In this document: positions 7,422 through 31,100 of the stretch, piece by piece | How the letters are laid out: each line of letters opens with the position of its first letter | How positions within the stretch are numbered: the first letter of the stretch is position 1 | Assembly (NCBI GenBank): GCA_050084515.1 | Contig: CM114271.1 | Span: forward strand, 35,216,001-35,280,000 | Length of the DNA stretch: 64,000 bases | Direction: 5' to 3' | Source: Blasia pusilla | Lineage: Eukaryota | Made by a program: the position numbers and the translations under genes | Notes under the pieces: model-generated | What the model was told of the DNA's origin: nothing | Databases searched by the model: none | Seen by the model: the letters and a program-made list of their open reading frames with translations, nothing else

Positions 7422-8231
7422 TGTCGTGCGCATACACATCGCTACACAACATACATCGCTATCATCGAACACACACGAAGACACACACGATCCCATGCTA
7501 ACTCATGGCATCCATACACAGAGGCCAAAAGTACCAAAATATAAAGTAAGATCTAATCTCTCTTTACACCATCTCATACCATAGCTTTCAAAGGTGTGCA
7601 CTCTCTCTCATGTCAAACCAAACCCACTCTCCTAATAAGAGGCTTGGGTTACACTCACAAGGCAAGGGACCATAGCTCCACTGCCTTATGCCAAGAAGTT
7701 CAACAAAGAGAGAGGGAGCTTGAGAGCTCATTCAATGAGTCAATCAATGAGCTTGAGAGCTCATTGATTGACCTCTCAAGCTCCCTCTCTTGGAGGTATA
7801 CCCCCTTCCCTCTCCCAAGCCCTCTCAACGGTAACCTATGCTTGTAGGTCACCTCCTTGGCTCTTGACCTGCTGTAGCGGGTCAAGGGCCACTTCCCAAA
7901 GTGGAAATTCAACTATCCCCAACATGGAAACTTGCCCGAAATAGTAAATTTCTCTATATGGCTCCAAATGAGTCGAAACAAAGGTGAAACCTGCTCTCTC
8001 AGGTTTCCCGGGGCCTCAACAAGTCATTCTCGACCTCCTGGGCTTGTACTCCACTACTCGTGAAGACATTCTGCTAGATCCCACCGATCTATCCTAATAG
8101 TTGCGACAGCTGTCGTGCGCATACACATCAATACACCACATACATCGCTGTGATCGAACACACACACAAACACTCACGATCCCATGCTAACTCATGGCAT
8201 CCATACACAGAGGCAAGAAGTACCAAAATAT
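7422..8231 (-). repeat. 3' terminal repeat block of element 1: B1 (8231-8111), GC (8110-8109), A2 (8108-7543), B2 (7542-7422)
   Basis: 7422-7542 and 8111-8231 are direct repeats, both starting TGTCGTGCGCATACACATC on +. The junction CGACAGCTGTCG at 8104-8115 is a perfect palindrome. Confidence 0.9.
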
Positions 8232-11400: not shown

Positions 11401-12600
11401 ACTCCAATAACTCATGAGGAACTGATGTATTCGGCGCCGCTCTCCTCTAGTCAACTTAGGGCCCATATGTGGCTCCCAAGTCTTCATCGTGACTACGGTA
11501 GGACTCTCCGGCCCGCATATTGGTTGCTGCTATGGTGCAACCCCGTCTCGAACAACAACACTCGGCCGCTCTTCTGCAGCCAACTGCAAACTCTGATCTC
11601 CTCCATGTGTAGTGCCCAAAACCACTCTCCATGCTGCGGCTATCATCTCTTGGCGTACCTGCAAAATACCCCAAGAAGTCCAAGGGTGTCTCTCCCAATC
11701 TCCCTTGGTGTGTAGATCTCCTCGAGTCTCACCCCAGCCACTGCCTCCACCGTCTCGTTAGGCATGGGGCTCATCAACGCAACCGCTGTGCTAATCCCTT
11801 CAAAGAGATCTAACACTCGAATATCCTCCTACGGGGTATACCACACAATGGGTGTGGTATCCAAGGGTGTCATCCTTGCACTCCCTGCTACCTCGGATTC
11901 CTCAGACCCATCACGCTCCACTGCAAACGCCTCGCTCCACGTGGTCTGCATGTGCTCATCTGCCAATCGTCGAAGCTCCTTAGTCGAGCCCCACAACGGC
12001 ACCTCTCCTCCACGGAATGATGCGGCTACCATAACACTCCTCTCCATAGAAATATCAGGAACGGGAATTTCCTCTGCATGGATATGTCCCTCAATCAAAT
12101 CACTAGGCCAAGTGATTGCACTGCTAAATGCTGCTAAGGTCGCCACCTCTCCTGGCCATCGCTCGATCACTGCACCTGTGAATCGAACGGGTAATGAGCT
12201 AAGGCGCCCATCACCTGACTGCCATCCTGATTTGTAGGATGCAGACTCCTCCTAGTAATCTAGGGAAAATCCCATTGGGTATAACACTGCTCCACCAACC
12301 AAGACGTCGTAGGATAGTGCATCAGCCACTATCGCCTTGGCTCGCACCACGGACTCATTTGTAGGATGTCTCGGGCGAATCCTCACCACAACCTCCTGTT
12401 GGGTGATATACTGTGTGGTACTGGCTCCACCCATGGATGTATGTATCCGAAATGGAAAACGCTCCACATCGGCTCTCGTCAAGCCCAATCCTCTGAATGA
12501 CGCTTTCCCCAACATCAGGGGTTGCGCTCCTGAATCCAACAAGACGCGCCACGGAGTAAAAGCTCTACCTCCAAGACTCACCAAGTGGAAGACCTCTCCT
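8430..12600 (-). pseudogene. Element 1 pol: PR - (DNMT motif I remnant) - RT - RNase H - IN - PHD, with stops and frameshifts
   Basis: ORF-track fragments 12252-12584, 11829-12170, 11272-11487, 10915-11256, 9596-10783, 9266-9478, 8770-9009 and 8446-8751. Confidence 0.9.
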
Positions 12601-13599
12601 CAGTTATCCAGCAACACAACACCAGGAGAAGCCATGGCACGATCTATCACGAGTCTAGCGGGCATCTCCACCATCCTAGCAGCCGCAGCCTGCCATGAAT
12701 CTGACGTGGACGGCCCGAGCATCCGCTCCAAGGGCAGGTCCATCATCTCCTCTGCATTCACCTCTCAACGTGATGCAGGAACTCCAACTCCATGCTCACA
12801 TAGCGTAGCGGCCAGCCAAAAACCCTCGGCGGGCGTACCCCCCAACGTCATAATATCGGAAGCAAAAAATAAAGGATCGCGGTACACAATGGTGGCCGCC
12901 CCCAACAACGAATTTGCAAGTCTCTAAGTTGTATAATAAGTCTTTTGACTAGTGATAGTGGGAGTATTACTGTGATTTCAATTGTACAATAGTTAACAAA
13001 TGAAGAATAAGATATATTGTGGGGACCTTTCTTCTTGTAAGAGAATCCATAGAATAAGAAATTGTATGGTGAGATAATAAAAAACTTCAGCTCATAACCA
13101 AAAAATTTCTATTTTCATTTTAGAAACCAGATTGATGGGATAAGTTTAGATGAGCAAATTTCATGCATCAATGGAGGCACACTAGGGACTCTTGTTTGCC
13201 TTCACTCTGATGGTTAACAACTTGTAAAAAATAGGTAAATCAAGGCAAGAAGGTAAATCATTCATGGAGGGCTCATTGCAAATCGTAAGATCCAATAAAC
13301 AAAAATGTAATGAACCAACTAATCAGCAGATCTGACATGCATCTTTAAAAAATTTCAGAATGGTAGTTGAGAGCCTAAATGTAGGAAAATTGAGAAATAA
13401 GATACAATACAAAGTCCATTGCATTTACTTACAAAGTTCATGAGAACCTGAGTAAAAAACCAAGTTGATAGTGTAATTCTTGGACAACTTTGTCCAACAA
13501 AATTCATTCAAACAGAAAAAAGCAAGAGTTCTACTAAAGACAAGTATAAGGTATCCGGCGTAATGTCAGCAAAAACTGAAGCTTAATGAAACTAACTTT

Positions 13600-15805
13600 C
13601 ACACCATAAACTAATGCGGGCCTACAATCTTTTACACGGATCTCTCGGGCCACAAAATGGAAGAACCTCTTGCATCCTTGAGAAGTATTTGTGGAGGATC
13701 ATCATCGTGGTTGGGAAATGGTAGTTCAGCTTTTGGCTCTTGTACACTAATCAGATCCACCTTGATACACCCTAGGGGAATCAATCTACCATGGTATTGA
13801 TCTCTTCTGCAATGCCAAATATTTGCCCTATTCCCACATGTTGCCATCCTTTGCGATTCTTTGAAAGAAAGACATGATCCCCTACTATCAACTGTATATA
13901 CAATCACATTAACAAAAATCATATTTCAGATATGAACTTATAAATTCTAAAAATACACATAAGCACATGTTCCAATCTTAGTTACCTTCTTAACGCTCCA
14001 ACCATTTTGAGGAATATTGCAAGAATATGTGGGAATCGTAAAATCACCTTCCAAGAATTTCTACAAATCCGATCCACTTTAAATCAATATATATGAAGAA
14101 CTTTGCTCATACAATGAAAGCACAAAAGGAAACAAAACATCATCAATTACTTACAATGTTCTTCTCTTTCCTCTCGTTGAGTGAAGGGTGCTTCTTTTTT
14201 ATCTTTATCTTGGAAGAGCTCCCTTTCCCAACATATGTTGGGTCTTCTTTATACCCATGCCAATAGGTCCCACTAGAACTCCAGAAGATAAGCCCTGAGA
14301 TTCTTTAGGCTTCTTGCTCTCTAAGATTTCTTCTTCCATGTTCTCAATCACTCCCATACCATGATTAGTTTTTGAATTATGAGAAGGTTGTACACCTAAC
14401 ATAGAATTTCCATCTTCATCCACGGTTAAATCTAACACTAGATTATCATTAAGTTTTGATACCATGGGTAAACTCTGATCCTTAAGAACAGATGGGAGAG
14501 AAGGTGTCGGAGTAGGAACTACCACACTTGGATCAAAATTTGTGGTTTCTTGAGGTACCACTTGAGTCATCTTGGATAACATAGCCATGATTTGGCCTAT
14601 GTTTTTCTTGATATCAATAATGTCTGACTTTGTGGATGCACCATCTTTCTCCATATTATCTATTCTGTGGCTTAAGGATATTGTTGCACTCTGTATCAAA
14701 GGGCATGTTCATCAACAAAAACAAGTTAGCTATTTGCAATAGCCTAGAACCAAGATACAATGATGAAAATATCATATTAGTGCAACTATAAGGAGAGTAG
14801 GACTACTATACTTTCCAGCAAACAAAAAATCAGATTGGTGCAACTGAAAGATACAAGATCAAGCAACACAAAAAAGATCCAAAGACAAGAAGAGAAATAT
14901 GAAAGATACCATGGATTTGCAATCTATTGTAGAGGGCTACTCTTATTAAGAAGGATGTCAATAATACCTTATTGCTGATACTTTGTTGGCTTGGATCCAC
15001 TTTAGGAGTGTTGAGGGACTCTTGCATCTCTTGTATTGTAGGAGAAGTTCCACGCTCCTTCTTCTACTTGACAATATCCAAAATTGAAAAACCAGAATCA
15101 AGATTTAGTCATATTCCAAGATGTAAGAACTCCCTATAAAACCTAAATTCTACCAATAAAGAAACTAGGAGGGCTCAATGGATAATAAACTTACAAAATT
15201 TTCTTTTGGCTCGAATATCCTCGTCTCCCATTAGAGTTGGGGTTTTCCACCTTAGATCTATTGGTCTTCATTCGTTCAGATTTCTGTTGTCCCGCGGGTG
15301 ACACCCAATACGACTTCAATGACTGCCATGTTTTTGGATTTACATCTGGAGGACAAGCGCATTCTTCGGATGCCCCTTTTTCTCTCCAATACTTTTTCAA
15401 GCCGGCCCGCTCTCGTTTCATCAGATCTTGGAGAGAAGTACGCCAAAACTTCTCACTCAACTCACCACCCACATACTCGTAATGATTGTCAATCTCTCTA
15501 CGGATGGTTCTCAAGTCTTGCTCGGCTTGTTTACTAACATCAACTATACTAAGGTCCAATTGGTGATGTACACTCGCCTTGACATCATCATGCCATTGGC
15601 TCTTTCCTTCACAACCATAAACAATCTCACCATTTTCTGTCACCTCTATTGTAGGTTTTAGCCCTGCGTGTTCACGAATCGAGTTGGTTGCTTTCCACTT
15701 CTCATAAACTTCTTTGCGGCACATACTCTTAAGAGATGAATCCATCAAAAAATATGTAGTCAAAGTAAGAAAAAAAAACCAAGTTTCACCATGGAAAAAA
15801 ACCAT
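13600..15805 (-). mobile_element. CACTA/En-Spm second-gene (TnpA/Ptta-like) exons, degenerate
   Basis: ORF 15191-15805 contains CPPDVNPKTWQSLKSYWVSPAGQQKSERMKTNRSKVENPNSNGRRGY, typical of plant Ptta/En/Spm proteins. It lies on the same strand as, and downstream of, the CACTA transposase at 28132-31889. Boundaries approximate. Confidence 0.65.
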
Positions 15806-16468
15806 AATTGATAAAACCTGGATGTAATGTCATTTTTCTAATTACCCTACATAGAATTTTAACTTACCAAGTGGATTTTTCTGGTCTTTCCACTCATACG
15901 AAACTTCTATTGGAGTTGTTGATGGTGGTACATAAAAACCATGTGTAGGATGGTGTGGATAAAAGGTCACAGGTGGGACCAACCTCGAGGCATTGAACCT
16001 GCAAAAAAACAAGAGAGCTAATTGCTGAAGAACATATAGCAATGAACTACCATTACGACGATGAAAAAAGAGGAAAAAAATCCTTTGTGAACTAGCATAA
16101 GAACTTAGACCTAAGGATTGAACTTGAAAAGCTAAGCTCCAACCAGGTAATGAAGATGGCCATTGGGATGGCATTTGAAATCCTTGATGATAGCCATGCA
16201 TTGGCCAAGGGTATGCAACATTAGAGCAGGATCCTTGGTTGTCCTTTGATTTCTTTGCCGGACTGTTGCCCTACATAAGACACATATTCAACATGTGTAC
16301 ATACCCAATCAATTTATCAACAAAACCTGATAGGACTATTCCACTCACAGTTTGTTTTGGAAAGCTTACTAACTGAATATTAGACTATGCATTATAATTG
16401 TCGTGCGCCTACTCTCCTTGAACGTTAATCTTGTTTGTTGCGGAAGCGTGCGTTCAGTAGGTCACGCT

Positions 16469-16836
16469 TGTCATGACCATACGGATTATGTCGTAGAGTA
16501 TGGTGTGCTGGTAGAGGCCATTCCTTATGTAGGACCGTAGTGGCTTGGTAGAGATGCGGTTCCATACATAGGGTTGGGGGTTACTCACTTGGGGGTGACT
16601 TTCCCCATAGGGCCCGCTCTTAGGTTGGAGGATATAAGGTGGCTTGCCCTCAAAGAACAGTCAGTTCTTTGAGTTGAGCCTATTGCGTTGGGAGTTAGCC
16701 TTGGTAGTGAGTAGAGCTCTTGGCTATGGTGTTTCCCGCAAGCTTCGACCTAGATTCTCCCATTGTGGAGTGGGTTTGGCTCGATTGTATGTGATTGTAA
16801 ACGTGTTTTATGATAGTAGGTCTTTCACGGATTTCA
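16469..16836 (+). repeat. A1 repeat of element 2
   Basis: Nearly identical to 25729-26066, which lacks ~32 bp near its start. Followed by internal sequence CTCAAAGAAC, not by B. Confidence 0.9.
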
Positions 16837-18559
16837 CTCAAAGAACTGGAGTAGATCGATGGTAGCTTCGATTGTAGATCAGTAGGATCTGGTTAGGGCT
16901 GATTTTGTACTCATCCGTGGATGTTCGCGGCTTGTTGCCTATGTTGGAGGTGTGAATCAGGTACGTGGTTGGTTGGGAAAGAAGCGCCTTGCTGAGAGCT
17001 TTCCAACGCGCTATAGATCGCCGGATTTCGTCAAGGGAGTTGGAATTTATCAAGCATTGAAGATTCTGGTTCGTGTTAAGCGGTTTTTACGATGTGGAGA
17101 GCTTGGAGTGCGGAAGCTCATGAAGTTCATCCAGATCGGGTGAGAGGTTCCTATTGCTACTTGTATTGTGATCTCATGTGAAGCTATCTGCTGGAGTGCG
17201 TGGAGCGTTGGATTTCTCGTGCATGAAACTTGGCGGAAGCGCTAGCCGGATTTGCGGTTCTAGAGGTGTATGGACAAAGCAAGTTTGTCTGATTTTTAGC
17301 ACGGAGTCACGGAGCTCGGTTGTAGCTGAGTTTTTGTGGGGAGATAGCTATGGTGGTCAATTGAATTCTGATCGAAACAGATTTGATTTCGGTCACGTAT
17401 TTGTGAAGTAATTTCTGATCAAAATTTCGCGGACTAGCTCAAGGTCTGGCTATGGTGGACAGCGGATCGGAGGGGCTGGTTGGTTGGTGACTCGTTCATT
17501 TTTGGAGACGCCTATCCCGTTGGGGGCGCCCTGGTTGGACCTCTCTCCATAGCGAAGCATGGCGAAGCATGGCGAACGGGGCATGTCTCGGCGTTTCGAG
17601 GCTTCGAGGCTTCGAGGCAACTCGTGGTAGCTCGGGGCGAGTGGGCGTGAGAGGCGGAGTAAGGAGCAAGGAGCAAGCAAGCAAGCTTGCTTGCTTGGGC
17701 GTGAGGCAATTTTTGCAGGATTTGGGATTTGAGTTTTGCATAACTGGTCACCCATCTTTGGGCTATTCTGCCTGGAGGACGCTTAATTGCCGAGTTCTTA
17801 ACTATGCCGGTGTCATGGTTGTTGTAGCTCATTTGGTCTTTGTTCGGAGATGTGTTAGGCGCTTTATGCATCTCAGGTTTTTGGTTGATGTACCTCTAGC
17901 GCATAGTACGGTGTAGCCTCTCCATGCGGTGATATTTTCAGGTCTTTGCGCGTTCGACTAGCACGCGTCATCGACCCGCGGCGGAGTAGCTATTGCGTTA
18001 GAATTGTGTGGTGGGTTTTGTGGATTCAGAGGGCACCACGCGTTTGGTGGATTTTGTTACCTTGATTTCCATTTGCGATTGGAGGGTTGTCGTTGGATTT
18101 CCTATGTTTGAATCCCCTCCATCGTGCTTTTTTGCTTGCGCCCATTGTTAGGGTTGACGCTGATTTCGAGTAGTGTTACTCTGTGTGCTACCGGTAGTGA
18201 GGTGGAGGGATGACGAGTAGATTGTGGGAGACTTCTTGTGGTGATGACAAGTTAGGTTGCCTACACCCATAACTAGTAGAGCTAGAATAGTATAGCGACA
18301 TCGACGTCACTTGGTAATTTGGTGGTGGTGCGGCATCGGCGTTGGTCATCACGGAGCTGTCGGGTGGTCTCGTTGGGGACCGTGGTGCGGACAGTGGTGG
18401 TTTCACACGGAGTGGATTTAGGTATCGGCTACCTTTTCCACTTCCGACGGTTGATGAAGAGGAGGACGAGGGTGTTCCAAACACCGAGTCTTCTACGTTA
18501 TTATCGAGTGTTGCAGCTCTATTGATTTGGGACATGGACGGTGGATATGGGGCCATGAA

Positions 18560-19700
18560 GGGGCCCACGACGATACTCGGGTGCAGTGGGTACCATTGAG
18601 TTTGAGGACTTCATGCAGGAGTTTGATACGTGGTGTGATATGCAGATGTTGCGGAACGCCACGTTGTTTACACCCTTCTTGGCTTGGAAGGGTTGTTTCA
18701 AAGACTTGGAAGGACCACCCATGGATGATTACCATGAGTTTAGGAAGGACCATGTTGCTGAGATTGAGGCATGGAGACAATATTGGTCTCCAGGCTATGT
18801 GTCTATCACCCATGGTGGTATTGGTAGTAGTGCTCCTACTATGCCCCAGCCCGACGCCTGAGTGGGCAGTACGAGGAGTGGGGGTACTAGTGGAGGTACT
18901 AGTGGGGGTACTAGTGCCCCACCATCGTTTAGCCTTGTTGCAGAGTTCTTCAAGAGGTTGAAGAAGAACTATCAGGAGTGAAGACGGAGAAGTTGAGGAA
19001 TCTTCAGGACTTTGAGCGAAAAGACTGGTGAGAGTCTTCGTGAGGCATACACGCGTATGTGACGCTTGATTTCAGATTACCAGTGTGTGACCGAGGATCA
19101 GCATTCGATTTTGGTATGGGATCTTGGACAGAGATTTGCGCCGTAGGGCGTGATGCTACTCTTATGAGTGATGATTCACCCACATTGACCCATGTGTTTG
19201 CTCTATCCGAGAAGATTGAGCTTAACATGGTGAAGGAGAGAGTGGTGACATCCGCATTCAGTGAGGGATACAACTACTACTTCGTGTTCAACCGCCCACC
19301 TCACGAGTCTCGTAGTAGTGGTGGTGGTAGTAGTAGAAGTGGGAGTCGTGGGGTACACGCGACCTCGTCAAGTCCTAGAGGGACATTTGTGCAGAGACCA
19401 TTGCCTTCTTCATTTTGCCCGGCAGGGCGATCATGTTGGACATGTGGAGGTGATCATGTTAGGAAGTTTTGTCCCCAAGAGGATGGGAGACGGACTTTGG
19501 AGGATGGGCCTCGGTCGGCCCCAACTCGGTGTGATCATTGCGGGAGACTAGGTCATCCTCGAGAGCGTTGCTTTGATCTTCATCCGAGTTGAGATCACGC
19601 CGTGGCCGTGGTGGAGTAGCTCCGAGAGGCCGAGGTGGTAGAGGTGGTAGGGGTGGTAGAGGTGGACCAGTGGTTGGAGAGCCTATGGTGGCTACCCCTA
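18560..19700 (+). pseudogene. gag of element 2 (frameshifted), with two CCHC zinc knuckles
   Basis: CWTCGGDHVRKFC and CDHCGRLGHPRERC in ORF 19059-19592, followed by an RGG-rich tail. Start approximate. Confidence 0.8.
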
Positions 19701-20329
19701 CCACTACGACAGTCAACTATGGCTGCAGTGAGCGATTGGAGCAGAGTTGGCTACTATGGTGGTATCCAAAGATAGATCGGGTTCGGGAGCAGGGGCTTCC
19801 ACCTCTTATGGAGGGGATGATTTCTCTTATATGGCAAGTGCCGCCAAAGTTGAGGCATCACTGCGATTCTGAGAAGAGCCACTCGGCCAGAGCCACGTGG
19901 TGCTCTTGTGGAGTTGGACCCATAGAGGGGTGAGGGTGGGGCTAGGCTTCCCCAATCATTCTTGTTGTCCGAGGTGCTTAGGACTCCATCCATGGTTCCT
20001 CGTTAGCCTATTGAGCCGACAATGGGGATCGAGGCATCTACATCGCGTGTAGTAGACACGGATCAAAGATCAATGCGATGTGCGGATGGCAGCACGGTGT
20101 TGGGATCCCCATTGTTTTCGCCACGGAGTGATGGCTTTAGGAGTTGACTTAGCTCCTGTATTTGATTAGTAGCGACCACGTTGTGTGAACGTGGGGGTGT
20201 TCTTGCTACACGTGTTGAGGTGGATGAGGGTGTTGCGGTGGAGCGACCCTCTATGTCGAGTAGCATTGAGTACCGGTGCTACTTGGCAGGTGCAATGGCG
20301 AAGATGGATGCATTACCGGCCCGCCAGAC

Positions 20330-20800
20330 CATTGATCGTGAGAGGCTTACACCTGGTGTATGTATGTTGGACAACCGGAGTGGGATCTTCCGATTGGTGA
20401 GTCCCTACAGACAGGTGTATAGACCAGATAGAGTCTTGTTAGACTCGGTGCCCAACCTTGATGTTGGGAAAGCGGCATGTATTGGTTTGGGTATTCGGAG
20501 GTCGGACCTTGAGCCTTGCCCATTCCGATTCAAACATCACTTGGAGGAGCCAATGATAGGTCTCAATTCATGACATGGGAGAATTTTTCATGACAGTTGA
20601 GACCAGATCATGCGACCGATAGCTCCCGGTTGGGAATATCTGCGGTAGTCACATCACCGAGTCGTATGATGTACTAGTTGGAGGAGAAGATTGATTGTAC
20701 CCGATGGGTTTTCAGATGGATTCTTGGGTCGAGACAGCGTCTTATAGACCAGGTTGGCGATCGAGGGATGGACGTATGAGCCAAGTTCTGTGAGATTTAT
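20330..20800 (+). pseudogene. Aspartic protease of element 2
   Basis: RVLLDS(G/V)... and YDVLVGG motifs, colinear with element 1 ORF 12252-12584. Confidence 0.8.
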
Positions 20801-21160
20801 TTCGGGGCTCGACCAGGAGGATCTTCCCCAAGAGTGTTAGCATCTGTGGGTGGTTTTAGTGGAGTAGTCACTTGGCCAGAGACTTTTTGGAGGGTAATGT
20901 TTACGCTATGGATTCTCTGCGCATGAGGAGGAAGAGGAGGTCCCTATTTTTGCAGCATGGCATCCTCATCGTTGGATGTGCCACTTTGGAGTTCAGCGGT
21001 GCACTACGGCAGAGGCGTCGCCTAGTGTGAGGAGGCTTGGTGTGAGGTGTTATACCTCACGAGGAAGAGGAGGCCCACGGCGGACTCCTACTTACAGCAT
21101 TTTGATTAGGTTATCCCCTTTGGATACTACACCCATTGTATGGCAAAGTATCCGCCGGAG

Positions 21161-22110
21161 GGCATTTGTGTGTTAGATCTCTTTGGTGGGATTAGCACTT
21201 TGGTTTGGTCTGCATGTTGCGGCCGGTATTCTGTCTTGCGGAGATACGTATATGTGGAGCGAGATGAGACGGCCGAGAGAGTCTCATCCCGACATATGGT
21301 CGATTGATGCGAGATATCTGAGTTGTTGCCGCCATCGGCTATTCGTGGGTACCAGCGTGCTTTACCATCACACATTGCATTGTTGGGGCGCAGGACCTTG
21401 AGAGAATTGGTCCTGTGGATTTGGTGATTCTTTGGATGGCCATGTCGGGTCATACACGTCTTTGGTCGTGGTGAGGGATTACATGACCCTAGGTCTCGAT
21501 TGTTTTGGGAGATGTTACGGGTGTTACGACATCTTCACGTTCATCGCACACGTGCTCTAGCTTACATTCTGGAGAATGTTCCATTGTTGGGTGACACTCG
21601 GACCGGATGATGGCGAGTGTTCATGAGGTGCGGTCTTGGATTGAACCAGCGGTGTTGTTGGATGCTGGATGAAGTTGGCTCAGCGTGCACATCGTCCACA
21701 CTTGTGGTGGACAAACTTGTTGCCTAGGAGGTTCTCGTCGAGCATATGATGCGAAGGTGGGATCCTCGCCTTATAGTGGATAGTATCTTGAATCTTTGGC
21801 GACTTTCTCAAGTGGTGAGGGTTATTGATCGGTCACCCATGGCAGTGGTGAACCGTGTGGGCCAACCTAGGATGGCACTACCCACATTTGTGAGTTTTCC
21901 GCGTCACATGCCTACGAGGGAAGGTGGTCCGGGGCTTGTATGGGATTCTCATGCGGCAGTTGGTGGAGCCTAACGCTGATGAGAGAGCGTGCGATGGGAT
22001 TTACTCTTTGGCGTGGCATGACGGTTGCTTCTATTTACGAGGCTTCACGACGTCATGTGTTGGGTCAGGCCATGGACCTGAATTGTTTGATTTGGATTTT
22101 GAGTCTTGGT
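21161..22110 (+). pseudogene. DNMT3-like C5 cytosine DNA methyltransferase domain inside pol (frameshifted in this assembly)
   Basis: Motifs in canonical order: I GICVLDLFGGIST (21161); II RYVYVERDETA; IV GPVDLVI.GWPC (PC at ~21440) then GEGLHDPRSRLFWEMLRVL; VI YILENV (21563-21580); VIII VLLDA...AHRPHLWWTNL (~21652-21719); IX EPNADERE.AMGF (~21966); X RRHVLGQAMDLNCL (~22048). Confidence 0.88.
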
Positions 22111-22459
22111 ATGGCGAAATCGGCGTCGACTTTTGTGGGTCTTCCACCCCTTGTAATGAGCTCGATGGCTACCGGGACGGTAGAGGCATCGGCTAGGGGC
22201 GAGGAGAGTAGTATTTTGCATCCTTGGAGTAAATAGGATGTAATGGTGGGCATGTGGAGTTGGTTGCTCATCTTTGGTGGAGGAGTTATTTGCTCGATGA
22301 TGATGGTGTAGCTAAGGGTGTATCATCTTGTGAGGGGGTTGCGTGCGACCAATGGCATCGTCCTCTCCCTCTAGTATGCCAATGGAGGAGACTTGGGAGC
22401 CATTACTTGGGCCCAAGCTACGGGAGGTGAGAAACGACGCTGACACGGTTCCTACGTGC

Positions 22460-23830
22460 TTATAGGAGTTGTTTTGCCTTTAGCATGAAGGAGTTGGGTT
22501 CTCTGGTTGGACCCGGTATACGGATTGATTTGGCTAGTGATACGCCAATCTTCCGTCGTCCCTACCGATATAGTGATATGGAGAGGGACCTGATTGAGTA
22601 GGACGTTGGACCTTTTGGAGGCTGGATTAGTGGAGTTGTCGCATGGAGAGTATGCATCGCCTTTGTCATGCTGCTAAAAAAGGATATGCATGGCAACTAC
22701 ACGGATAGGCGGATGTGTGGAGATTACCGTCCTATCAATCGGCAAACCAAGGCCGATAGGTATGCCATGCCTACACTTGAGGAGATCTTTGATGTGGTGG
22801 GACAGGCAAAGATTTTCAAGTACTTTGATCTTGAGCGAGGATACCATCAATTGCCAATTCGAGAGTGACAAGGCCAAGACAAAGCATTTTGGGGTGTCAA
22901 CTCTCATGGCAAGGATTGTTTGTACCAAAGTGGAAATTCTTACCCTTTGGGTTGAAGAATGCACTGCTGAGTTTCAAAGAGTGATGGACAGGATCCTAGC
23001 AGGTTGGATTTTGTTTGGTGTTACATTGATGATATCTTGGTGTTCAAGAACACGGTGGAGGAGCATCGATACATTTGCAGATGGTGTTTGAGCGGTTGAA
23101 AGCTCATGGTCTACGTTTGCATCCAGGAAAGTGTAAGTTCTTCCATGAGGATGTTGAGTACTTGGGTCATGTGATCTATCCGGTGGTTTGGGAGTTCAAA
23201 GCAAGCAAAGGTGGAGGCTATTGCACTTATTCGCGTCCGATAGATGTGAGTAGAGTTCGAGCATTCATGGGATTGGCGAACCATGTCGGAGGTATGTGAA
23301 GGGATTTAGTGCTATGGCAAAGCCTTTGAACCAATTGCTGAAATCAGATCAAGAGTGGCATTGGGGAGATGATCGGGAGAGAGCTTTTGTGGAGCTTAAG
23401 GCCCGGTTGGTGGCGGCGCCTATCTTGAGGAGACTGTCGAGGGCGCCCATTTCGATTACACACTCGATTGGAGTAGGTTGGGACTTGAGCGGTGTTGACA
23501 CAACATGATGATGAGCACATGGAGTTTGTGGTGGCCTATGCAAGTCATTCGAATAATGCAATGGAGTCGCGCTATAGTTCATATGAGGGAGAGTGCTTGG
23601 CAAGAGTGTGGGTGGCACACTTTAGGTGTTACTTGTTTGGCACACAATTTACCCTTGTATCGATCACCGTCGCTCAAGTGGTTGATGGAGTCGGACAAGC
23701 TTACAGGGAAGCTTGCACGGTGGGCTCTTATCTTACAGAGTATGACTTCCAGGTGGTACATAGACCTGGAGTTGCCAACCTTGATCTTGATGGGTTGAGT
23801 AGGAACCCATGTACTAGCCAAGAGGATACA
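22460..23830 (+). pseudogene. Reverse transcriptase and RNase H of element 2
   Basis: RMCGDYRPINRQT, GYHQLPI, YIDDI, LHPGKCKF, EYLGHVI, VVAYAS, SYEGECLA, RWAL...YDFQVVHRPG. Confidence 0.92.
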
Positions 23831-24169
23831 ATCGGGGCTAGATGGCATGGCGAGGTTGATGAGGAGATGGTGCCAGGTTGGCATGCATCCGCCTTTTATG
23901 TTGGTTAGGGATGGACTCTAGTATGGAGGACCACATGATATCTTACTCTAGTTAGAGGGTAGATGGCCAGCCTTCAGATCCTAAGGTTGGAGATGGTGGT
24001 ACGGATCAGCGTGATATTCATGATGATGCGTTGGTGTTGGAGTTCCTACGGACCAGTAGGGTGCCAGGCATAGTGAGTGCAAGGAGCGAGACCGTGTTCT
24101 TTATCGTGCTAAGAGGTATCGATTGAGGGAACACATATTCTCCGCGTGTGGGAGGATGGTAGAGTACGA

Positions 24170-25445
24170 GTAGTGCCACATTTGGCTCGAGAGAGCGCAT
24201 TTTGCGACATGCCCATGAGGAGTTGGGACATTTTGGGGTAAAGCGACGTATAGCTTACTCCTTGGCGATATTGGTGGCGTGGCATGCATACTCAGTGCGG
24301 CAGATTGGTGTCATGTTGTATGGTTTGTGACCGGGTGAGGGCATCATTTAATGCCCCTACACCACAATTACACCCTTGCCTATTATGGGGTTGGGTTACC
24401 GTTGGAGTGTGGACTTTTGCGGGACCGTTACCGTTGGATGCACGACATCATCGATATGTGTTGGTGATGGTGGAGCACTTCTCCAAGTGGATTGAGTTGG
24501 TGGCATTACCGGACAAGGCAAGTGAGGGAACGGCGTATGCGTTTCTGGATAGAGTGCTTAGTCATTTTGGTGCACCAGCTGAAGTGCTGACCGACCAGGG
24601 TACAGAGTTTCAGGGTGAGTTTCAGGTCTTGTGTGACAAGGCGTTGATTGATCATCGGACCACGTCTCGAGATCATCCAGAGGCGGATGGTTTGGCTGAG
24701 CGTGTGGTTCAGACGGTGAAGAGGGCATTGCGCAAGTATGGCCCTCTGAAGGGCATCTTGAGACCAGGATATTCAGTTGCCATGGTTAGCCATGGGGTAT
24801 AGGTTCAGTCGCCAAGCATCCTTGGCTTCCTTCTCACCTTATTTTCTGTTATACGGCCGAGATCCAGACTTGCCAGCAGCAATTCGTCGGGAGTCTAGTG
24901 AGGTGGTGAACCTTGATGACCCAGAGATGTGGATGAGGGTGTGTTCTCAGCGGGCGGAGCTCTTTCGGAGAGTTATGCCAATAGCCTTTGAGAATCTTGC
25001 CATTGCTCAACACAGGATACGTTGCGGTATGCAACCATTTGGGGTGGAGGTTATCAACCATCGATTCATAGGTTCCATGTGGGGACTATATCTATTTGCA
25101 GCAGATTGCCCGACAACGTTGGATGTGACGGCAGCGCACTATTTTTTACGAGTGCGTGAGGTGTTAGCTTCTGGAGTTCTCATGTTGGAGGGTCGTGATG
25201 GAGTTGTTTGGAAGGACCATGTGCGTAATTGTGCGCCATGTCATCTTCCAAATGTGGATGGTACTGTTGACCCAAGCTTAGCCATGATACGTGCTAGCTT
25301 GAGGTGCATGTTGTGTGGGTCTCTTGCTGTAACGCAGCCCGTATGTTGGTGTGTGATCGGTGTTCTAGGGGTTGGCACATGATGTGTTTGACTCCACGTT
25401 TGGATGTTGTTCCTCTTTGGAAGGTGGGTTTGTCCTCGATGTACT
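24170..25445 (+). pseudogene. DDE integrase with C-terminal PHD finger (element 2)
   Basis: HHCC (HAHEELGHFG...CMVC); D-D-E core (DFAGP, LTDQGTEF, DGLAERVV); terminal CMLC...CDRC...WHMMC...CPRC at ~25303-25442. Confidence 0.9.
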
Positions 25446-25622
25446 TAGGAGAGGTAGATGACTTGATCTTTGCATGATATGGATTACTGGATGTGCGACT
25501 AACGATGGGGCAACCTAGCACCCGGCCTTCGATTTGGGCACCCAAGAAGGTGTATAGCATGTAGTAGATGTATAGGGGCTACCCGGGAGTTAGAGGACCT
25601 AACCGCCTTGATTAGGGGGCGA

Positions 25623-26172
25623 GTTGTGGTACACTTGCATTTGTGGATACTCGTCTATGTTATGTATGTATGTGCGTATGGTATGTCAGCGATGTATGTT
25701 GTATGACGATGTGGATTCGCACGACAGCTGTCATGCTGGTAGAGGCCATTCCTTATGTAGGACCGTAGTGGCTTGGTAGAGATGCGGTTCCATACATAGG
25801 GTTGGGGGTTACTCACTTGGGGTGACTTTCCCCATAGGGCCCGCTCTTAGGTTGGAGGATATAAGGTGGCTTGCCCTCAAAGAACAAATCAATTCTTTGA
25901 GTTGAGCACATTATGCGTTGGGAGTTAGCCTTGGTAGTGAGTAGAGCTCTTGGCTATGGTGTTTCCCGCAAGCTTCGACCTAGATTCTCCCATCGTGGAG
26001 TGGGTTTGGCTCGATTGTATATGATTGTAAACGTGTTTTATGATAGTAGGTCTTTCACGGATTTCAGTTGTGGTACACTTGCGTTTGTGGATACTCTCGT
26101 CTATGTTATGTATGTATGTGCGTATGGTATGTCAACGATGTATGTTGTATGACGATGTGGATTCGCACGACA
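25623..26172 (+). repeat. 3' terminal block of element 2: B1 (25623-25726), GC, A2 (25729-26066), B2 (26067-26172)
   Basis: B1 and B2 are near-identical (GTTGTGGTACACTTGC...GATTCGCACGACA). The junction GCACGACA-GC-TGTCATGC is a near-perfect palindrome. Confidence 0.92.
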
Positions 26173-28131
26173 CGCTCTCAACGCTGATCTGCATCCAAAC
26201 ACGCACTCTGGTTAGTCGGGTCTTGGATCAATCAGCGGGCTAACTTTCCGAGTTCTTGTCTCAGACTCTCATCAAGCTTAACCTTCCTAGTTTCGCGGTT
26301 TACAACATGGGCAAATCTCGAAAGACTTGGGACAGACTATCTGCTCGGTTCAGGAAACCTAAACGGCGTTTCGCGCCTGGCGGTTCCAACTGTCCTATGG
26401 ACATCCAATGAGTTCCTCACCAAAACTTGCACGAAGTGAATCTCGGGTTGGGATCCAAGTGTGGCGTATAAATTCCACTCCCTTGGATCAGGATTGGGTT
26501 TCGAGTTCCAACGCCAAACTCCCGTTCCATCCCGTGCCTCTGAAACGCCGTTTGGCGCCCAAAGTGGGGATTCGTATTCCGAGACATCTTAGAGAGACTC
26601 CTCCCTTACTAGTACTTCAAGGGATCTCCGGGGGCCCCCTACATTTAGGGAAAGACACCCGGGCCTCTCCAATTGGCCCTCAACCCGATTGCTCTCTCAA
26701 TCATTTTTGGCCGATATCTCAGCCTGTACTTTTGCGTTTGCTAAGATCTTTGGTGCGTTGGAAGCATCTCAAGATCAGCTTTCTAACTCACCCTTACTTG
26801 TCTTGAACGCATCTTGGAGCTCAACGTTATGGTCCTAAACACAATCAGATTCTCCCAAACGCTAGTCGTGTTTCAAACTGGTTCTCACCTCTTTGGCAAC
26901 CAACCTCCCAAGACTCAACTCATCTCAAGTCTTGTCTTGCGTTTGGTCTAGGTTTCCTGGTCGCAACCACTAACGCATGAAATGCACAACTCTGTGCTGC
27001 GTTTCGTCTCTTAGACTTTTCCAAGAGACCTTTTCCAAACACCACTCCAAAGCGCAAACCTCGCAGCGTGAGTTCACTTGAGTTTTGATGTTTCGCTTGG
27101 CGCCTATTTGGTGTTGTTTGGTTATGAGGGTCGTGAAAATAATCTAGATAAGCATGAAATGAAAAAGGTAAGGATAAGGATAGAATCTAACTTTTTGTTC
27201 TCCATGTTTAGGACGGCTGTTGATCTTGAATGGAAACTTCGAGGTGCTTTCTCTAAGAAATTGTGAAGGCTCTGGACTTGATTGCTCCAGATTAACATCA
27301 AATTTGGGATGTGACTCCAAAGCATCACTATTGAATTTTTCCTCGTCATGTGAAGAGCGTAGCTTGGTCGTCCATCTTCAATTTATAGCATCGTTGACGA
27401 GTAAGATGTACTTTGGGCGTGGATGGTTGTTGTGTCTTTCTAGTATGCTCTCTCGGTACCTTAGCTATGCGTGATTCCTCTGGAAAAACTGACCTACAAA
27501 CCAGCATGTAACATAATAATATGTAAGTTCCATACAAGTTACGGAATATGACCTCAAAGTACACCTCTGTATAATATCTTCCACATCTCTTCAAAGCAAG
27601 GATCTTTAAGAGCCTTAATTGGAAATTGGAAAATATGAGGAAGAGCAAAGATGGCCATTGAGAAGCAAGGAGACGTATTGCTGCCCTCACTCTTGCACGA
27701 CGCTCCTCTCGTAATCTGAAATACTCTGTGTTCGCCTCCTTTGTGGATAGTTTTGTCCCTACATCAACAAGCGGAACTCCTTTTTCCGAAGTCGTTAGGG
27801 TAACTCCACTATTAGATTGAAAATGGTTTTTGGACTCTTGAATCTGCATCCTGAAATCAAACACATATTGCAAAACCAAGGAATGTATTTAGCCACAAAT
27901 CTTTGGCACAGTCAAAGATGTGCCAATGTCTTGAGTTTAACATTTTACAAGTTAAACACTCTCTGATTGGCATAATCAGACCTTGCACCAGATTTGGAAC
28001 TTTCATAAAATAAAAAAATTGTAACAAAAAGTGTCCAAATAGGAATCAACACACTATTGCAATACCTGGATATTACATTGAAGTCCATTACAATAGCTTT
28101 TCATTACTCCTCTATTACAAAGTAGTACACC

Positions 28132-31100
28132 TTACTCACTATCAGAACTAGTCCTCATTTCACAACTATCTTTGGAACTTTCACCATGTTCTTCATCGGG
28201 TACAAACTCTATTGTTGCTAAAGCTAATTCTGCATCGGATAGGTGGATGGCACCAAGCAATGAGATGTCTTGCACTTCATTGTCCAAGTGTGATTGTGCC
28301 CTCAAGTCTCCCAAGTTGATATGATCAGTAATACAAATGTCTGGTCTACCCCCCTACAACTCTTCTAGAACGGGTTTCTTTTTGCATAAATACCTTCCAA
28401 CCTATACGTTCCTCAACTGGAGCATAGAATACATGTTCAACTTGGCTGGGAAAAACAAAGGGATCTGAATTAAGTGGTAGTAGTTTTCTGAAATCTACTA
28501 GGAGAAACCCATTTTCATCATGCATCATTGTAGCATCAATCCCATTCCATGAGGATTTTACCCACTTGCCTCTCATAAGAACTATATGCTCATCCAATGT
28601 GCCATAATCTAATTGCAAAATATCTACTAGAATGCCAACATAAGGGATTTGGCTAAGATGATTCACTTGGTTAGCTGTTTGTGAAAGAAATATACTTGTT
28701 ATACCTGAGTTGTATGTAGAGAATGAACTATCGTCATCCACCCTAAAGTGATTTCCATATGCTTTCATTTTCTTAAAAGAGAGGTATGAAAGTGATGGAG
28801 GCACTGAAAACTTCAAGACTAATTCATCAAGCTGGTTTCCTTTAGCATTTTCTTCTCTAATTTTAAGACGTATCCACTCAGCAAATGTGTATTCACACTC
28901 GCCAGAAAGTCTATAAATTCTACACAACAAAAGTACATCAGAATCTGATATTTGTGAGACCAATGATACAATAGTAGCAATGGCAAAGTTAAGACCTAAA
29001 ATCAAGGTTGGACCAATGGCTTACTTACTTGATTCAGCTAGTGAAACACTCACTATTTTCCAATACATATTGATGGACCACAACTGCCATTTCAGCTGTT
29101 AACTGGCGCTTAGTGCCTACTCCTTCCAAAACCTCACCGATAATACCTTCCTCCTCAGAAGCATCCCAAATCCTAGTTTGCACCACTGTGTAATCTTGCA
29201 TGTACTCTATGGTGAATCCTACAGCTTCATCAAGGATACACCCTTCAGCCATACATCCCTCAAGTTGAGCTCGAGATTGCACATAACCTTTTAGAACTCC
29301 CAAGTATCGTTCTATCGTATACATCCCATCGACAACCAACTAGACCTTATATGTCAATCTCTTCCACCAAGTGTACCATAGGTGAGTCATGACATCAAAG
29401 AAAGATGGGGGGAAGTGTACTTCCATGAGGCACAAGGTAGTTGCCACATCCTCTTTCAATGAAGCAAAATAGGCTGGATTCCAAGTTTTCACACAAAGCT
29501 TCCAAAATACTCATGACATACGCATTACTACCATTCTCACAGGACCCTTCAAGAGACCCCATAAGAAATAAAGGCATCAATTGTTGCATGAATACATGCA
29601 GGTCATGAGACTTCAAGCTACCTAATTTCTTGCATAAGAGGTGCTTCTGTAATGCACCTGCATACCCACTCGGAACCTTAAGTGCTTCTACCCTTAAGTG
29701 GAAGACTTTTATTTCCTCAAGACTCAACACATAGTCTGCTCTGGGTTTGAACTTAGCCCCATCTCTCTTAGGATGGGCTTGCAACCAAAAATGTTTTCGA
29801 ATACCTCTTACCTCCATGTCTTGCCTTACCTGTATAGAGTCCTTCTTCTTAGAACCAAAAGGGTCTTAAGGGTATTATCAGCAACATTCTTTTCACGATG
29901 CATCACGTCCAAAATATGCCAAATTAGTAAGCCTTGGAAAAAGCCAACACACAAAGAGAGATTAGTTGAGAGGAAGTCTAAAAAATACAAGGATAAATAT
30001 TTAATCGGGTTACATAATAAAGTAAGCCTTTGAAAATAAGATACTATTTGAAGATGAACAATAATTTGAAAGGTGAGAACCTGGAAAATATTGGTTGTAA
30101 GATATTACCTTCCAATAAGGCAGGTCAAATAGTATGCTCCGTCGTGAAACTCCAGTTTGCTTGTAGGGATCAATACGCATCGGTACACCTCTCCTTGGCG
30201 GTGCCTTGGGTTCACTATAATAAACTCTTTTCAATTCAGCCTACTCAAGTATCTCATCACTTCATACCCACCTTGGTATTTCTCGGGTCTCCACTTTACA
30301 ATCAAAATGATGGGCCACTTGGCGCATCCTATATGGGTGATTTCTCTCCTTCTAACGCCGATGGCCTTGAAATGCAGTTTTGTGCAATGGTTTGGAGTAG
30401 TGTGAATCCACATTAGGTCCACACACTACACACCCCAACTTGCCTTTTTGTGGCTTGGCCAAAGACAATACCCAAACCTTGGTAGTCAATTATGGTCCAT
30501 ATGACCATTGCTCGAAGCTAGAACTTAGCAATGCCTTCTACACTACTACTCTCAAAAGCTGTGACCCCTTTCCAAAGTATTTGCAACTCCTCAACAAGTG
30601 GAGCTAAGTATATATCTAGATTTTTAGAAGTCATTGATTCCTTCCCCGGAATTATAAGAGCCAATTGGAGAAATAACTTTTTAGTACATAACCAAGGGGG
30701 TAAGTTATAATTGACCAAAAGCACTGGCCAAGTAGACCACACATTTTTTTTCACTAAATGGATTGACCCCATCTAATGCCAAACCAAGCCTACAATTTCT
30801 GGGCTCATTCATGAACTCTGGCCATTGAAGATCAATTTCTCTCCATTGCTTAGAATCCCCAGTGTGCCTCACCAATCCATCTGTACTCTTGTTCTTGGAT
30901 GTCCATGTCATAAGTTCAGCAATGGATGTACATCTATACATACGCTTCAACCTTGGAATAATAGGGAAGTGTCGTAACACCTTCATGGGCACTTTACCCT
31001 TCCCCATTTGCTTATACCTTTGTGACATGCACTTGGAACATGTGTCCAAATCCTTGTGAGCACCTCGAAACAACATGCAACCATTTGGACACTCATGAAT

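What the first reader, a model, noticed from the sequence alone, without database searches (positions are those of the whole stretch)
21161..22110. Retrotransposon-encoded DNMT3-like cytosine methyltransferase between protease and RT
Seen: across frameshifts, C5-MTase motifs I (VLDLFGGIST), II (RYVYVERD), IV (GPVDLVI.GWPC, the catalytic PC), VI (YILENV), VIII (AHRPHLWWTNL), IX (ERE.AMGF) and X (RRHVLGQAM) occur in order inside pol. The ORF track fragments this region and misses it. Established: these match the DNMT3 catalytic domain (VLSLFDGI, GPFDLVIGGSPC, ENV, AHRARYFWGNL). DNMT-carrying retrotransposons have been reported from dinoflagellates and charophyte algae. Inference: a land-plant Gypsy packaging its own de novo methyltransferase, possibly to methylate its cDNA or integration site. 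I am not aware of this being a described feature of embryophyte Gypsy lineages.
Basis: partly seen in the sequence, partly recalled or inferred. Interest (0 to 1): 0.9.

Follow-up and report, generated by a model that had tools for sequence, protein, structure and literature searches.

The report
Decayed retrotransposon-borne DNMT3-like methyltransferase domain
A broken copy of a jumping gene in a land-plant genome carries the remains of its own DNA-methylating enzyme, a design so far described in print only for an alga, and intact relatives exist in liverworts and peat mosses.

Summary
Window 21052-22344 holds a complete but frameshifted C5-cytosine methyltransferase domain. All motifs (I, II, IV, VI, VIII, IX, X) are present in order, and the domain is 64-70% identical to intact relatives.

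It is DNMT3-like. By sequence, 25 of 27 solved-structure hits are DNMT3A/B/C. By fold, the best match is 6f57 at E 2.6e-19.

It sits after Gag-CCHC-protease in a ~9.7 kb Gypsy-type element (16506-26180), followed by RT, RNase H, integrase and a PHD finger.

Intact relatives occur in Marchantia, Sphagnum and 128 metagenome stretches. In them:
- Gag-PR-DNMT is ORF1, separated from RT-RH-INT by one conserved in-frame stop (61 of 61 loci).
- The DNMT is under purifying selection, with Ka/Ks 0.10-0.24 between lineages.

The Klebsormidium nitens protein GAQ93235.1 has the same CCHC-PR-DNMT order. The element also has the DIRS-like split repeats reported for KnitGypsy-Dnmt3.

This is therefore a new, land-plant member of a known kind. 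This particular copy is dead. What the enzyme does for the element is untested.

The parts
16506..16836 (+). Left terminal repeat A1 (TG...CA)
   Evidence: It is 97.0% identical to 25734-26066, with 6 mismatches and 3 gap openings.
18550..19592 (+). Gag region with a CCHC knuckle (CDHCGRLGHPRERC at 19530-19571), frameshifted
   Evidence: tblastn with Marchantia P0028 residues 6-352. The knuckle was located. No Pfam hit on the pieces.
19863..20543 (+). Protease region. The relatives' LLDSG active-site stretch is at 20436-20447 and is broken after LLDS.
   Evidence: tblastn with P0028 residues 442-672. The K. nitens and other relatives hit Asp_protease_2 or gag-asp_proteas at the same position.
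21052..22344 (+). DNMT3-like C5-cytosine methyltransferase domain with linker and C-terminal tail. It has about 10 frameshifts and stops at 21305 and 22234.
22344..22345 (+). Homologous position of the ORF1/ORF2 stop codon, lost here through a 1-nt gap
   Evidence: DNA alignment with L004 and L006. The stop is present in 61 of 61 aligned loci.
22431..23299 (+). Reverse transcriptase (YIDD near 23010-23040), frameshifted
   Evidence: tblastn with P0040 residues 712-1133, a weak RVT_1 hit.
23489..23905 (+). RNase H
   Evidence: PF17917 at E 2e-11 and PF17919 at E 3.1e-11.
24254..24799 (+). Integrase core, preceded by the end of the H2C2 zinc domain
   Evidence: PF00665 at E 8.9e-14. 74% identical to the integrase of Sphagnum fallax P0078.
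25298..25474 (+). PHD finger at the C-terminus of the integrase ORF
   Evidence: PF00628 at E 1.4e-5, 25.4 bits against a cut-off of 24. A PHD finger is also present in 15 of 23 distant DNMT-carrying relatives.
25622..25733 (+). Repeat B1, directly upstream of A2
   Evidence: 94.8% identical to 26066-26180.
25734..26066 (+). Right terminal repeat A2
26066..26180 (+). Repeat B2, which completes the split direct repeat A1...B1-A2-B2
   Evidence: The same layout occurs in metagenome locus L070.

Best explanation
Shown: window 21052-22344 is the decayed copy of a DNMT3-type C5-cytosine methyltransferase domain. The domain belongs to a Ty3/Gypsy-type retrotransposon spanning 16506-26180. Its order is A1 repeat, Gag-CCHC, protease, DNMT, RT, RNase H, integrase, PHD finger, then B1-A2-B2 repeats.

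Shown in intact relatives: Gag-PR-DNMT is one ORF of about 1280-1370 aa. RT-RH-INT follows in the same frame after a single conserved stop codon (TAG or TAA, always followed by CAA or CAG). The DNMT keeps all catalytic motifs and evolves under purifying selection.

Inferred: active family members translate the methyltransferase as part of the abundant Gag-PR-DNMT product. Occasional stop-codon readthrough would give a longer fusion with RT-RH-INT-PHD. The element's protease would then release the methyltransferase. The enzyme would methylate cytosines de novo on the element's own new DNA or at its landing site, tuning how the host's silencing machinery sees the element. The PHD finger on the integrase would choose the chromatin context.

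The element is a land-plant member of the kind described as KnitGypsy-Dnmt3 in the charophyte Klebsormidium nitens. The copy in this window cannot make the enzyme.

The confidence figure applies to the identity and anatomy. The biological role is only an inference, at roughly one in three for self- or landing-site methylation.
For: Identity:
- PF00145 hit on the window piece.
- Frameshift-aware alignment at 64-70% identity over 347-453 residues.
- 25 of 27 PDB sequence hits of relative P0028 are DNMT3A/B/C (best E 1.7e-8). M.HaeIII scores 1e-3 and a plant DRM (4onj) 2.6e-3.
- An AlphaFold model of relative P0007 has pLDDT 88.4. Its top Foldseek hits are all DNMT3A/B/C (6f57_D at E 2.6e-19, TM 0.84 on the target).
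- The first non-transposon hit of the family profile is an ant DNMT3 at E 3.4e-15.

Place in the element:
- Pfam and tblastn map of the window.
- Marchantia P0040 carries PF00145 ahead of RVT_1 and RNase H.

Intact relatives:
- L069 has ORF1 at 976-5082 (Gag-PR-DNMT, 1369 aa), one stop, then ORF2 at 5086-8226 (RT-RH-INT) in the same frame.
- L067, L073, L033 and L006 show the same junction.
- The junction codon is a stop in 61 of 61 aligned loci (TAG 43, TAA 18), followed by CAR in 61 of 61.

Selection on the DNMT:
- Ka/Ks is 0.129 for L073-L069 (Ks 0.26), 0.102 for L073-L067 and 0.125 for L067-L069.
- It is 0.14-0.18 for L004, L006 and L070 against L033.

Same kind as K. nitens:
- GAQ93235.1 (P0144) hits the bryophyte DNMT profile at E 1.2e-52.
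- It has zf-CCHC, then Asp protease, then PF00145.
- The window and L070 have the A1...B1-A2-B2 repeat layout.
- The paper's Fig. 4 legend says the K. nitens repeats are DIRS-like while the domains are Gypsy-like.
Against: - No enzymatic, expression or methylome evidence was obtained for any family member, so the role is inference only.
- This copy is broken by about 10 frameshifts and 2 stops in the DNMT, and the readthrough stop is lost.
- Close pairs of copies give Ka/Ks of 0.64-0.97. Of 48 metagenome copies, 41 carry 1-8 in-frame stops in the DNMT. Most copies are therefore decaying.
- Only 5 of 61 junctions match the full CARYYA leaky-stop context that I recall from plant viruses.
- No target-site duplication was found at either candidate right end.
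- The tree backbone does not resolve whether the bryophyte and K. nitens lineages are sisters.
- Placement in DNMT3 against a full set of DNMT1, CMT and DRM references was not done here.
Confidence: 0.9

Rival explanations
1. The bryophyte elements acquired their DNMT3 domain independently of the Klebsormidium elements. This would be a separate capture from a land-plant host DNMT3, so the window would represent a new variant rather than a member of the known kind.
For: The backbone of the DNMT tree is an unresolved polytomy. K. nitens groups with two unnamed proteins (100/100), apart from the bryophyte group (91/77). De Mendoza 2018 documents repeated independent captures in other lineages (abstract and section 9).
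Against: Both share the CCHC-PR-DNMT order and the split-repeat layout. The K. nitens DNMT matches the bryophyte profile at E 1.2e-52, whereas an animal DNMT3 scores 3.4e-15. In the tree, all transposon DNMTs sit together on one side of a very long branch to the DNMT3 outgroup.
Confidence: 0.1
2. The frameshifts are assembly or base-calling errors, and the copy in the organism is really intact and possibly active.
For: The terminal repeats show 3 gap openings against only 6 mismatches. The hexamer CTTTGG occurs 13 times in the element, 9 of them in 20984-22272. At three of these places some other copies read GC where the window reads CT. Most metagenome relatives carry stops but no frameshifts (48 single-HSP copies).
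Against: 60% of the window's sampled 31-mers are present in contigs of run X1. At 21430 only 3505 of 61290 depth units disagree with the window, but X1 may be the source sample. The neighbouring P450 exons are free of frameshifts. The copy also has in-frame stops and a degraded junction.
Confidence: 0.1
3. This is a fragment of a host DNMT3 or DRM gene that landed in this one element by nested insertion or transduplication, with no role in the family.
For: Nothing beyond the general frequency of gene-fragment capture by plant transposons. A second related element in the window lacks most of the domain.
Against: The domain lies at the same position in Marchantia, Sphagnum, K. nitens and 128 metagenome stretches. 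It is in frame with Gag-PR and under purifying selection. The second element still keeps the linker and motif I, so it is a deletion derivative.
Confidence: 0.02

Closest known systems
KnitGypsy-Dnmt3 of Klebsormidium nitens (de Mendoza et al. 2018, PMC5890265; abstract, section 9 and passages read)
   Same: Both have a DNMT3-like, non-rearranged domain inside the polyprotein of a Gypsy-type element. The K. nitens protein GAQ93235.1 has the same CCHC-protease-DNMT order. Both have DIRS-like split repeats. The paper reports Ka/Ks below 0.2, and I measured 0.10-0.24 between lineages.
   Different: The host here is a land plant, with named relatives in Marchantia and Sphagnum. The DNMT lineage is distinct within an unresolved backbone. 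The paper text I read does not give the ORF junction, so the conserved stop codon cannot be compared. Its supplements were not available.
Green-algal Gypsy-type polyproteins ordered RT-RNase H-DNMT-integrase-PHD, for example 'pol [Scenedesmus sp. PABB004]' KAF8056149.1 and Haematococcus lacustris QJQ45_005506. These were found here; I know of no printed description.
   Same: The DNMT domain is homologous, with E<1e-44 to the bryophyte profile. They have the same PHD finger after the integrase and the same Gypsy-type RT, RNase H and integrase.
   Different: Their DNMT sits between RNase H and integrase, not after the protease: 69 of 148 representatives against 14. These DNMTs form their own clade, with support 99/97.
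SymbioDIRS-DNMT3 and SymbioLINE-DNMT of dinoflagellates (de Mendoza 2018; abstract and passages)
   Same: They are retrotransposons that encode a cytosine methyltransferase.
   Different: They belong to different element classes (DIRS, LINE) and different hosts. The authors regard them as independent captures.
Host DNMT3 enzymes (animal DNMT3A/B/C; bryophyte DNMT3)
   Same: They share the catalytic fold and motif order and are the best sequence and structure matches.
   Different: Identity is about 20-22%. The transposon domain has no PWWP or ADD domains and is instead fused to Gag-protease.
Leaky stop codons of plant RNA viruses and gag-pol readthrough of gammaretroviruses (recalled; no call)
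   Same: A single in-frame stop separates an abundant upstream product from the polymerase, followed by CAA or CAG.
   Different: Readthrough was not demonstrated here. Only 5 of 61 junctions match the full recalled CARYYA context.

Membership tests
C5 cytosine DNA methyltransferase (Pfam PF00145) | Profile match above the curated cut-off | tested here: met
   Window piece 21428-21607 scores 24 bits against a cut-off of 22. Intact relatives score 27.7-58.4 bits.
C5 cytosine DNA methyltransferase (Pfam PF00145) | Motifs I (FxGxG), IV (PC), VI (ENV), VIII, IX and X in linear order | tested here: met
   All are present in the window across frameshifts. In 18 diverse relatives the C and Q of motif IV, the E of ENV and AHR.R of motif VIII are invariant, and the N of ENV is in at least 90%. 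Motif names are recalled.
C5 cytosine DNA methyltransferase (Pfam PF00145) | Methyl transfer to cytosine C5 | not testable with these tools
   This needs expression of a natural intact domain followed by bisulfite or enzymatic methyl sequencing.
DNMT3 subfamily | Closest to DNMT3 among characterised methyltransferases, by sequence and by fold | tested here: met
   25 of 27 PDB sequence hits are DNMT3A/B/C. All listed top Foldseek hits are DNMT3A/B/C. An ant DNMT3 is the first non-transposon hit.
DNMT3 subfamily | Motif order not rearranged (unlike DRM) | tested here: met
   The order I-II-IV-VI-VIII-IX-X holds in the window and in relatives.
DNMT3 subfamily | Placement inside the DNMT3 clade in a tree with DNMT1, CMT, DRM, DNMT2/4/5/6 | not tested
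   Only one DNMT3 outgroup was available. De Mendoza 2018 places the K. nitens transposon copies in a divergent Dnmt3-related clade.
DNMT3 subfamily | PWWP or ADD reader domains N-terminal of the catalytic domain (typical of host enzymes) | tested here: not met
   The upstream part is Gag-CCHC-protease. This excludes it from being a host-type DNMT3 enzyme, but not from the catalytic-domain clade.
KnitGypsy-Dnmt3-type retrotransposon | DNMT3-like domain in the polyprotein of an element with Gypsy-type RT, RNase H and DDE integrase | tested here: met
KnitGypsy-Dnmt3-type retrotransposon | Domain order CCHC-protease-DNMT, as in K. nitens GAQ93235.1 | tested here: met
   for K. nitens. for the window and intact relatives.
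KnitGypsy-Dnmt3-type retrotransposon | DIRS-like repeat structure | tested here: met
   A1...B1-A2-B2 in the window and in L070. The paper's Fig. 4 legend is. Equating its 'DIRS-like' with the split-direct-repeat layout is my reading, as the figure was not seen.
KnitGypsy-Dnmt3-type retrotransposon | DNMT under purifying selection across copies (Ka/Ks below 0.2 in the paper) | tested here: met
   Ka/Ks is 0.10-0.24 between intact lineages. Close pairs give 0.64-0.97, and this copy is decayed.
KnitGypsy-Dnmt3-type retrotransposon | Common descent with the K. nitens elements | tested here: inconclusive
   The homology is strong (E 1.2e-52), but the tree backbone is unresolved. No RT tree was made.
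Ty3/Gypsy LTR retrotransposon | RT-RNase H-integrase order and terminal direct repeats TG...CA | tested here: met
Ty3/Gypsy LTR retrotransposon | Target-site duplication flanking the element | tested here: not met
   The flanks are TGGTG on the left against GTTGT (after A2) or CGCTC (after B2) on the right. The boundaries may be off, or the flanks mutated.

The most novel reading that the evidence does not exclude
Non-vascular land plants, including the genetic model Marchantia polymorpha, maintain a lineage of Gypsy-type elements that make a working DNMT3-type enzyme in Gag-like amounts, upstream of a leaky stop. Transposon-encoded de novo methylation would then measurably shape, or manipulate, bryophyte methylomes. 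This runs against the printed view that transposon-encoded methylases were lost in land plants.
Probability: 0.25. Interest if true: 0.75.

Novelty: new member of a known kind. Interest (0 to 1): 0.55.

Why it matters
Why retrotransposons carry their own cytosine methyltransferase is an open question. It was raised by the dinoflagellate and Klebsormidium cases.

The family turns out to have intact, selected members in liverworts and peat mosses. That moves the question into land plants and into Marchantia, a host with good genetics and methylome tools. There the enzyme's activity, sequence context and effect on silencing could be tested directly.

It also corrects the stated range of such elements. 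A 2019 paper says they are absent from land plants 'such as tracheophytes' (PMC6338049).

Three features are concrete handles on mechanism:
- the conserved stop codon between the DNMT and RT;
- the PHD finger on the integrase;
- a large green-algal sister group with the DNMT at another position in the polyprotein.

Tried and rejected
- The genome search 'own': no genome is held for this window. A census of copies in the source genome was therefore impossible.
- One search failed on a coordinate slip and was corrected.
- Pfam on five of the six stop-free DNMT pieces, and on the Gag and protease pieces of the window, gave nothing.
- Expression: no RNA holder listed. Runs X5 and X9 are only guessed to be RNA. 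Their few contigs over the stretch are not used as evidence.
- I considered that the frameshifts are long-read artefacts at a recurring CTTTGG. Most contig depth in run X1 agrees with the window at those places. I therefore keep this only as a 0.1 rival.
- No target-site duplication was found.
- My recollection that the algal 'Chlamyvir' clade carries a PHD finger was not borne out. Neumann 2019 (PMC6317226) mentions PHD 0 times and methyltransferase 0 times.
- The protein atlas search with P0007 only returned generic PF00145 clusters.
- The P450 exon search did not resolve the host lineage. The best identities are 56-59% to mosses and a liverwort, but also 57% to grasses.
- The sister relation of the bryophyte and K. 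nitens DNMTs is unresolved.
- Literature searches for a printed description of bryophyte or embryophyte DNMT-carrying retrotransposons found none (passages in 17, 21, 22, 49, 52, 53, 82, 83). Supplements were closed and may list such copies. Subscription journals are not covered.

Full report
**1. The observation**

The + strand of 21100-22240 contains no long open frame.

Of six stop-free pieces, one (21428-21607, motifs IV to VI) hits Pfam PF00145 by itself: E 3e-5, 24 bits against a cut-off of 22. The other five gave no hit.

That 60-residue piece finds 84 proteins at E<=1e-3 among 120 candidates, the best at 1.6e-21 and 73% identity. Fourteen carry organism names: 11 Marchantia polymorpha, 1 M. 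paleacea, 1 Sphagnum troendelagicum and 1 S. fallax.

I wrote a protein-to-DNA alignment that allows frameshifts. It runs through the whole domain:
- 243 of 347 residues identical to P0007;
- 250 of 391 to Marchantia P0028;
- 293 of 453 to P0041.

Against P0007 or P0028 it needs about 10 frameshifts between 21076 and 21981. In-frame stops lie at 21305 and 22234. The domain with its linker and tail spans about 21052-22344.

**2. What kind of methyltransferase**

The intact Marchantia relative P0028 was searched against all PDB sequences and gave 27 hits. Twenty-five are DNMT3A, 3B or 3C (best 1.7e-8). The other two are M.HaeIII (1e-3) and a plant DRM, 4onj (2.6e-3).

An AlphaFold model of relative P0007, built on an 18-sequence alignment, has mean pLDDT 88.4 and pTM 0.88. 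Its best Foldseek matches in the PDB are all DNMT3A/B/C. The top hit is 6f57_D at E 2.6e-19, with TM 0.84 on the target and about 22% identity.

The motif order is not rearranged, unlike DRM. The first non-transposon protein found with a family profile is an ant DNMT3 at E 3.4e-15. I did not build a tree with the other DNMT classes.

**3. The element**

Direct repeats at 16506-16836 and 25734-26066 are 97.0% identical (6 mismatches, 3 gap openings). They begin with TG and end with CA. Between them, tblastn and Pfam place the following:
- Gag with a CCHC knuckle (18550-19592);
- protease (19863-20543);
- the DNMT;
- RT (22431-23299);
- RNase H (PF17917 at 2e-11);
- integrase (PF00665 at 8.9e-14);
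- a PHD finger (PF00628 at 1.4e-5).

A 112-115 nt segment just upstream of the right repeat (25622-25733) recurs just downstream of it (26066-26180) at 94.8% identity. This gives the layout A1 ... B1-A2-B2. Metagenome locus L070 has the same layout. I found no target-site duplication.

The whole element is frameshifted. Its coding strand has a strong excess of G over C, with skew +0.22 to +0.28.

**4. Intact relatives and the reading frame**

A scan of metagenome contigs found 128 stretches encoding a relative, and 80 were kept.

In L069, one ORF of 1369 aa (976-5082) holds Gag, protease and DNMT. A single stop follows. A 1047-aa ORF (5086-8226) with RT, RNase H and integrase then continues in the same frame. 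L067, L073, L033 and L006 show the same junction. The Marchantia models P0028 and P0039, and the metagenome proteins P0014, P0052 and P0058, end at the same point.

The junction could be aligned in 61 loci. In all 61 the codon is a stop (TAG 43, TAA 18), followed by CAA or CAG. Five match the fuller CARYYA context that I recall from leaky stops of plant viruses.

The DNMT is therefore the C-terminal domain of the Gag-protease ORF. It is in frame with pol through one stop.

In the window the stop is lost through a 1-nt gap at 22344/22345.

**5. Selection and decay**

Of 48 loci with a single full-length match, 7 have no stop in the DNMT and 41 have 1-8 stops.

Ka/Ks:

| Pair | Ka/Ks | Note |
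|---|---|---|
| L073-L069 | 0.129 | Ks 0.26 |
| L073-L067 | 0.102 | |
| L067-L069 | 0.125 | |
| L004, L006, L070 vs L033 | 0.14-0.18 | Ks near saturation |
| L004, L006, L070 vs L073 or L067 | 0.19-0.24 | Ks near saturation |
| Close pairs | 0.64-0.97 | |

This is the pattern of a domain conserved while elements replicate and decaying after insertion.

Of 97 in-frame stops compared with the nearest copy, 67 are single C>T or G>A changes. CGA>TGA is the commonest, with 32. That is what deamination of methylated CpG would give.

**6. Range of the family**

A profile search of 1.84 billion cluster representatives gave 3060 proteins at E<=1e-3, 899 at E<=1e-10 and 269 at E<=1e-30.

Architectures of the 148 new representatives among the 150 listed:
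- 69 have the DNMT after RNase H and/or before the integrase, in full RT-RH-DNMT-INT-PHD;
- 14 have it after the protease or before RT, like the window;
- 65 showed the DNMT alone.

Of 23 long representatives, 20 have RVT_1, 18 have rve and 15 have a PHD finger.

Named members with the first architecture are green algae: Scenedesmus, Haematococcus and Chromochloris. Named members with the second architecture are Marchantia and Sphagnum.

The first group forms one DNMT clade, with support 97 in the quick tree and 99/97 in the careful tree. It sits among unresolved lineages of the second type.

**7. Relation to the published case**

One representative, P0144, is Klebsormidium nitens GAQ93235.1. 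It matches the bryophyte profile at E 1.2e-52. It has zf-CCHC (297-313), an aspartyl protease (598-691) and PF00145 (from 833), which is the window's order.

De Mendoza et al. 2018 describe K. nitens Gypsy elements with the following features (section 9 and Fig. 4 legend):
- a Dnmt3-related, non-rearranged domain in the Pol polyprotein;
- Ka/Ks below 0.2;
- repeats 'the same as that of a DIRS retrotransposon'.

Their text mentions Marchantia and Sphagnum 0 times.

A 2026 preprint still cites only that work for 'streptophytes (Gypsy-DNMT3)'. [quoted passage not shown]

My searches found no description of such elements in bryophytes or other embryophytes. Supplements and subscription journals were out of reach.

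The window's element is therefore a land-plant member of a known kind. The public databases already hold unremarked gene models of it.

**8. Host and state of this copy**

The window also holds:
- a three-exon P450 gene without frameshifts (3457-6085, PF00067 at 2e-64);
- plant En/Spm-type remains;
- a Copia element.

The P450 exon is at most 59% identical to any named protein, with mosses and a liverwort among the best. The host is a land plant, probably a bryophyte, but not identified.

The window's exact words are abundant in contigs of coded run X1 (share 0.60). The laid contigs are short and carry high word depth. This suggests a high-copy, already defective subfamily. X1 may be the source sample, however, and depth is not copy number. 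An assembly artefact remains a minor rival.

**9. Mechanism**

Shown:
- the anatomy;
- the conserved stop;
- the conserved catalytic motifs;
- purifying selection.

Inferred:
- Gag-PR-DNMT is the main translation product and a readthrough fusion the minor one.
- The protease frees the enzyme.
- The enzyme methylates the element's new DNA or its landing site.
- The PHD finger guides integration.

None of this was tested.

Natural intact copies served instead.

Noticed in passing
window 9100-12930, minus strand: A second, related Gypsy-type element with protease, RT, RNase H and integrase (46-74% identical to Marchantia and Sphagnum relatives). It keeps the linker and motif I of the DNMT (about 11850-11780), then lacks motifs II-X. 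RT starts about 11520. It still has a stop followed by glutamine codons before RT. It looks like a deletion derivative of the DNMT-carrying family.
   Followed up: partly
window 1328-1832 and 7421-8231: Repeats of 91-92% identity at 1328-1832 and 7542-8108 bracket the P450 gene. In addition, 7421-7542 and 8110-8231 repeat each other on either side of 7542-8108. Parts of these short flanking repeats resemble the B repeat of the main element on the opposite strand. This is probably the B-A-B end of the second element plus a further A-type repeat.
   Followed up: partly
window 3457-6085, minus strand: A three-exon cytochrome P450 gene (PF00067, up to E 2e-64) with no frameshifts. It is at most 59% identical to named land-plant P450s of the CYP71/CYP736 type.
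   Followed up: partly
window 16000-26000: The coding strand of the element is G-rich and C-poor (GC skew +0.22 to +0.28) and T-rich (AT skew -0.10 to -0.17). The second element shows the mirror image on the other strand. The cause is unknown.
   Followed up: no
window 20984-22272: The hexamer CTTTGG occurs 9 times in 1.3 kb and 13 times in the element (about 4 expected from base composition). At 21430, 21460 and 22272 some other copies in public runs read GC where the window reads CT. Unexplained.
   Followed up: partly
window 45094-47445, minus strand: An open frame of 783 aa with no Pfam family. The protein atlas gives only weak leads: unnamed clusters, with SACS in 11-15% of members.
   Followed up: partly
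window 15191-15826, 28346-29865 and 61971-63813: Remains of plant En/Spm-type transposases (PF03004 weak, DUF4216) and a Ty1/Copia element (RVT_2 at 1.9e-55, rve).
   Followed up: no
metagenome loci L001-L080: Decayed copies of the family carry many in-frame stops but few frameshifts. Of 97 stops, 67 are single C>T or G>A changes relative to the nearest copy, with CGA>TGA the commonest. This is consistent with CpG methylation of the elements in their hosts.
   Followed up: yes
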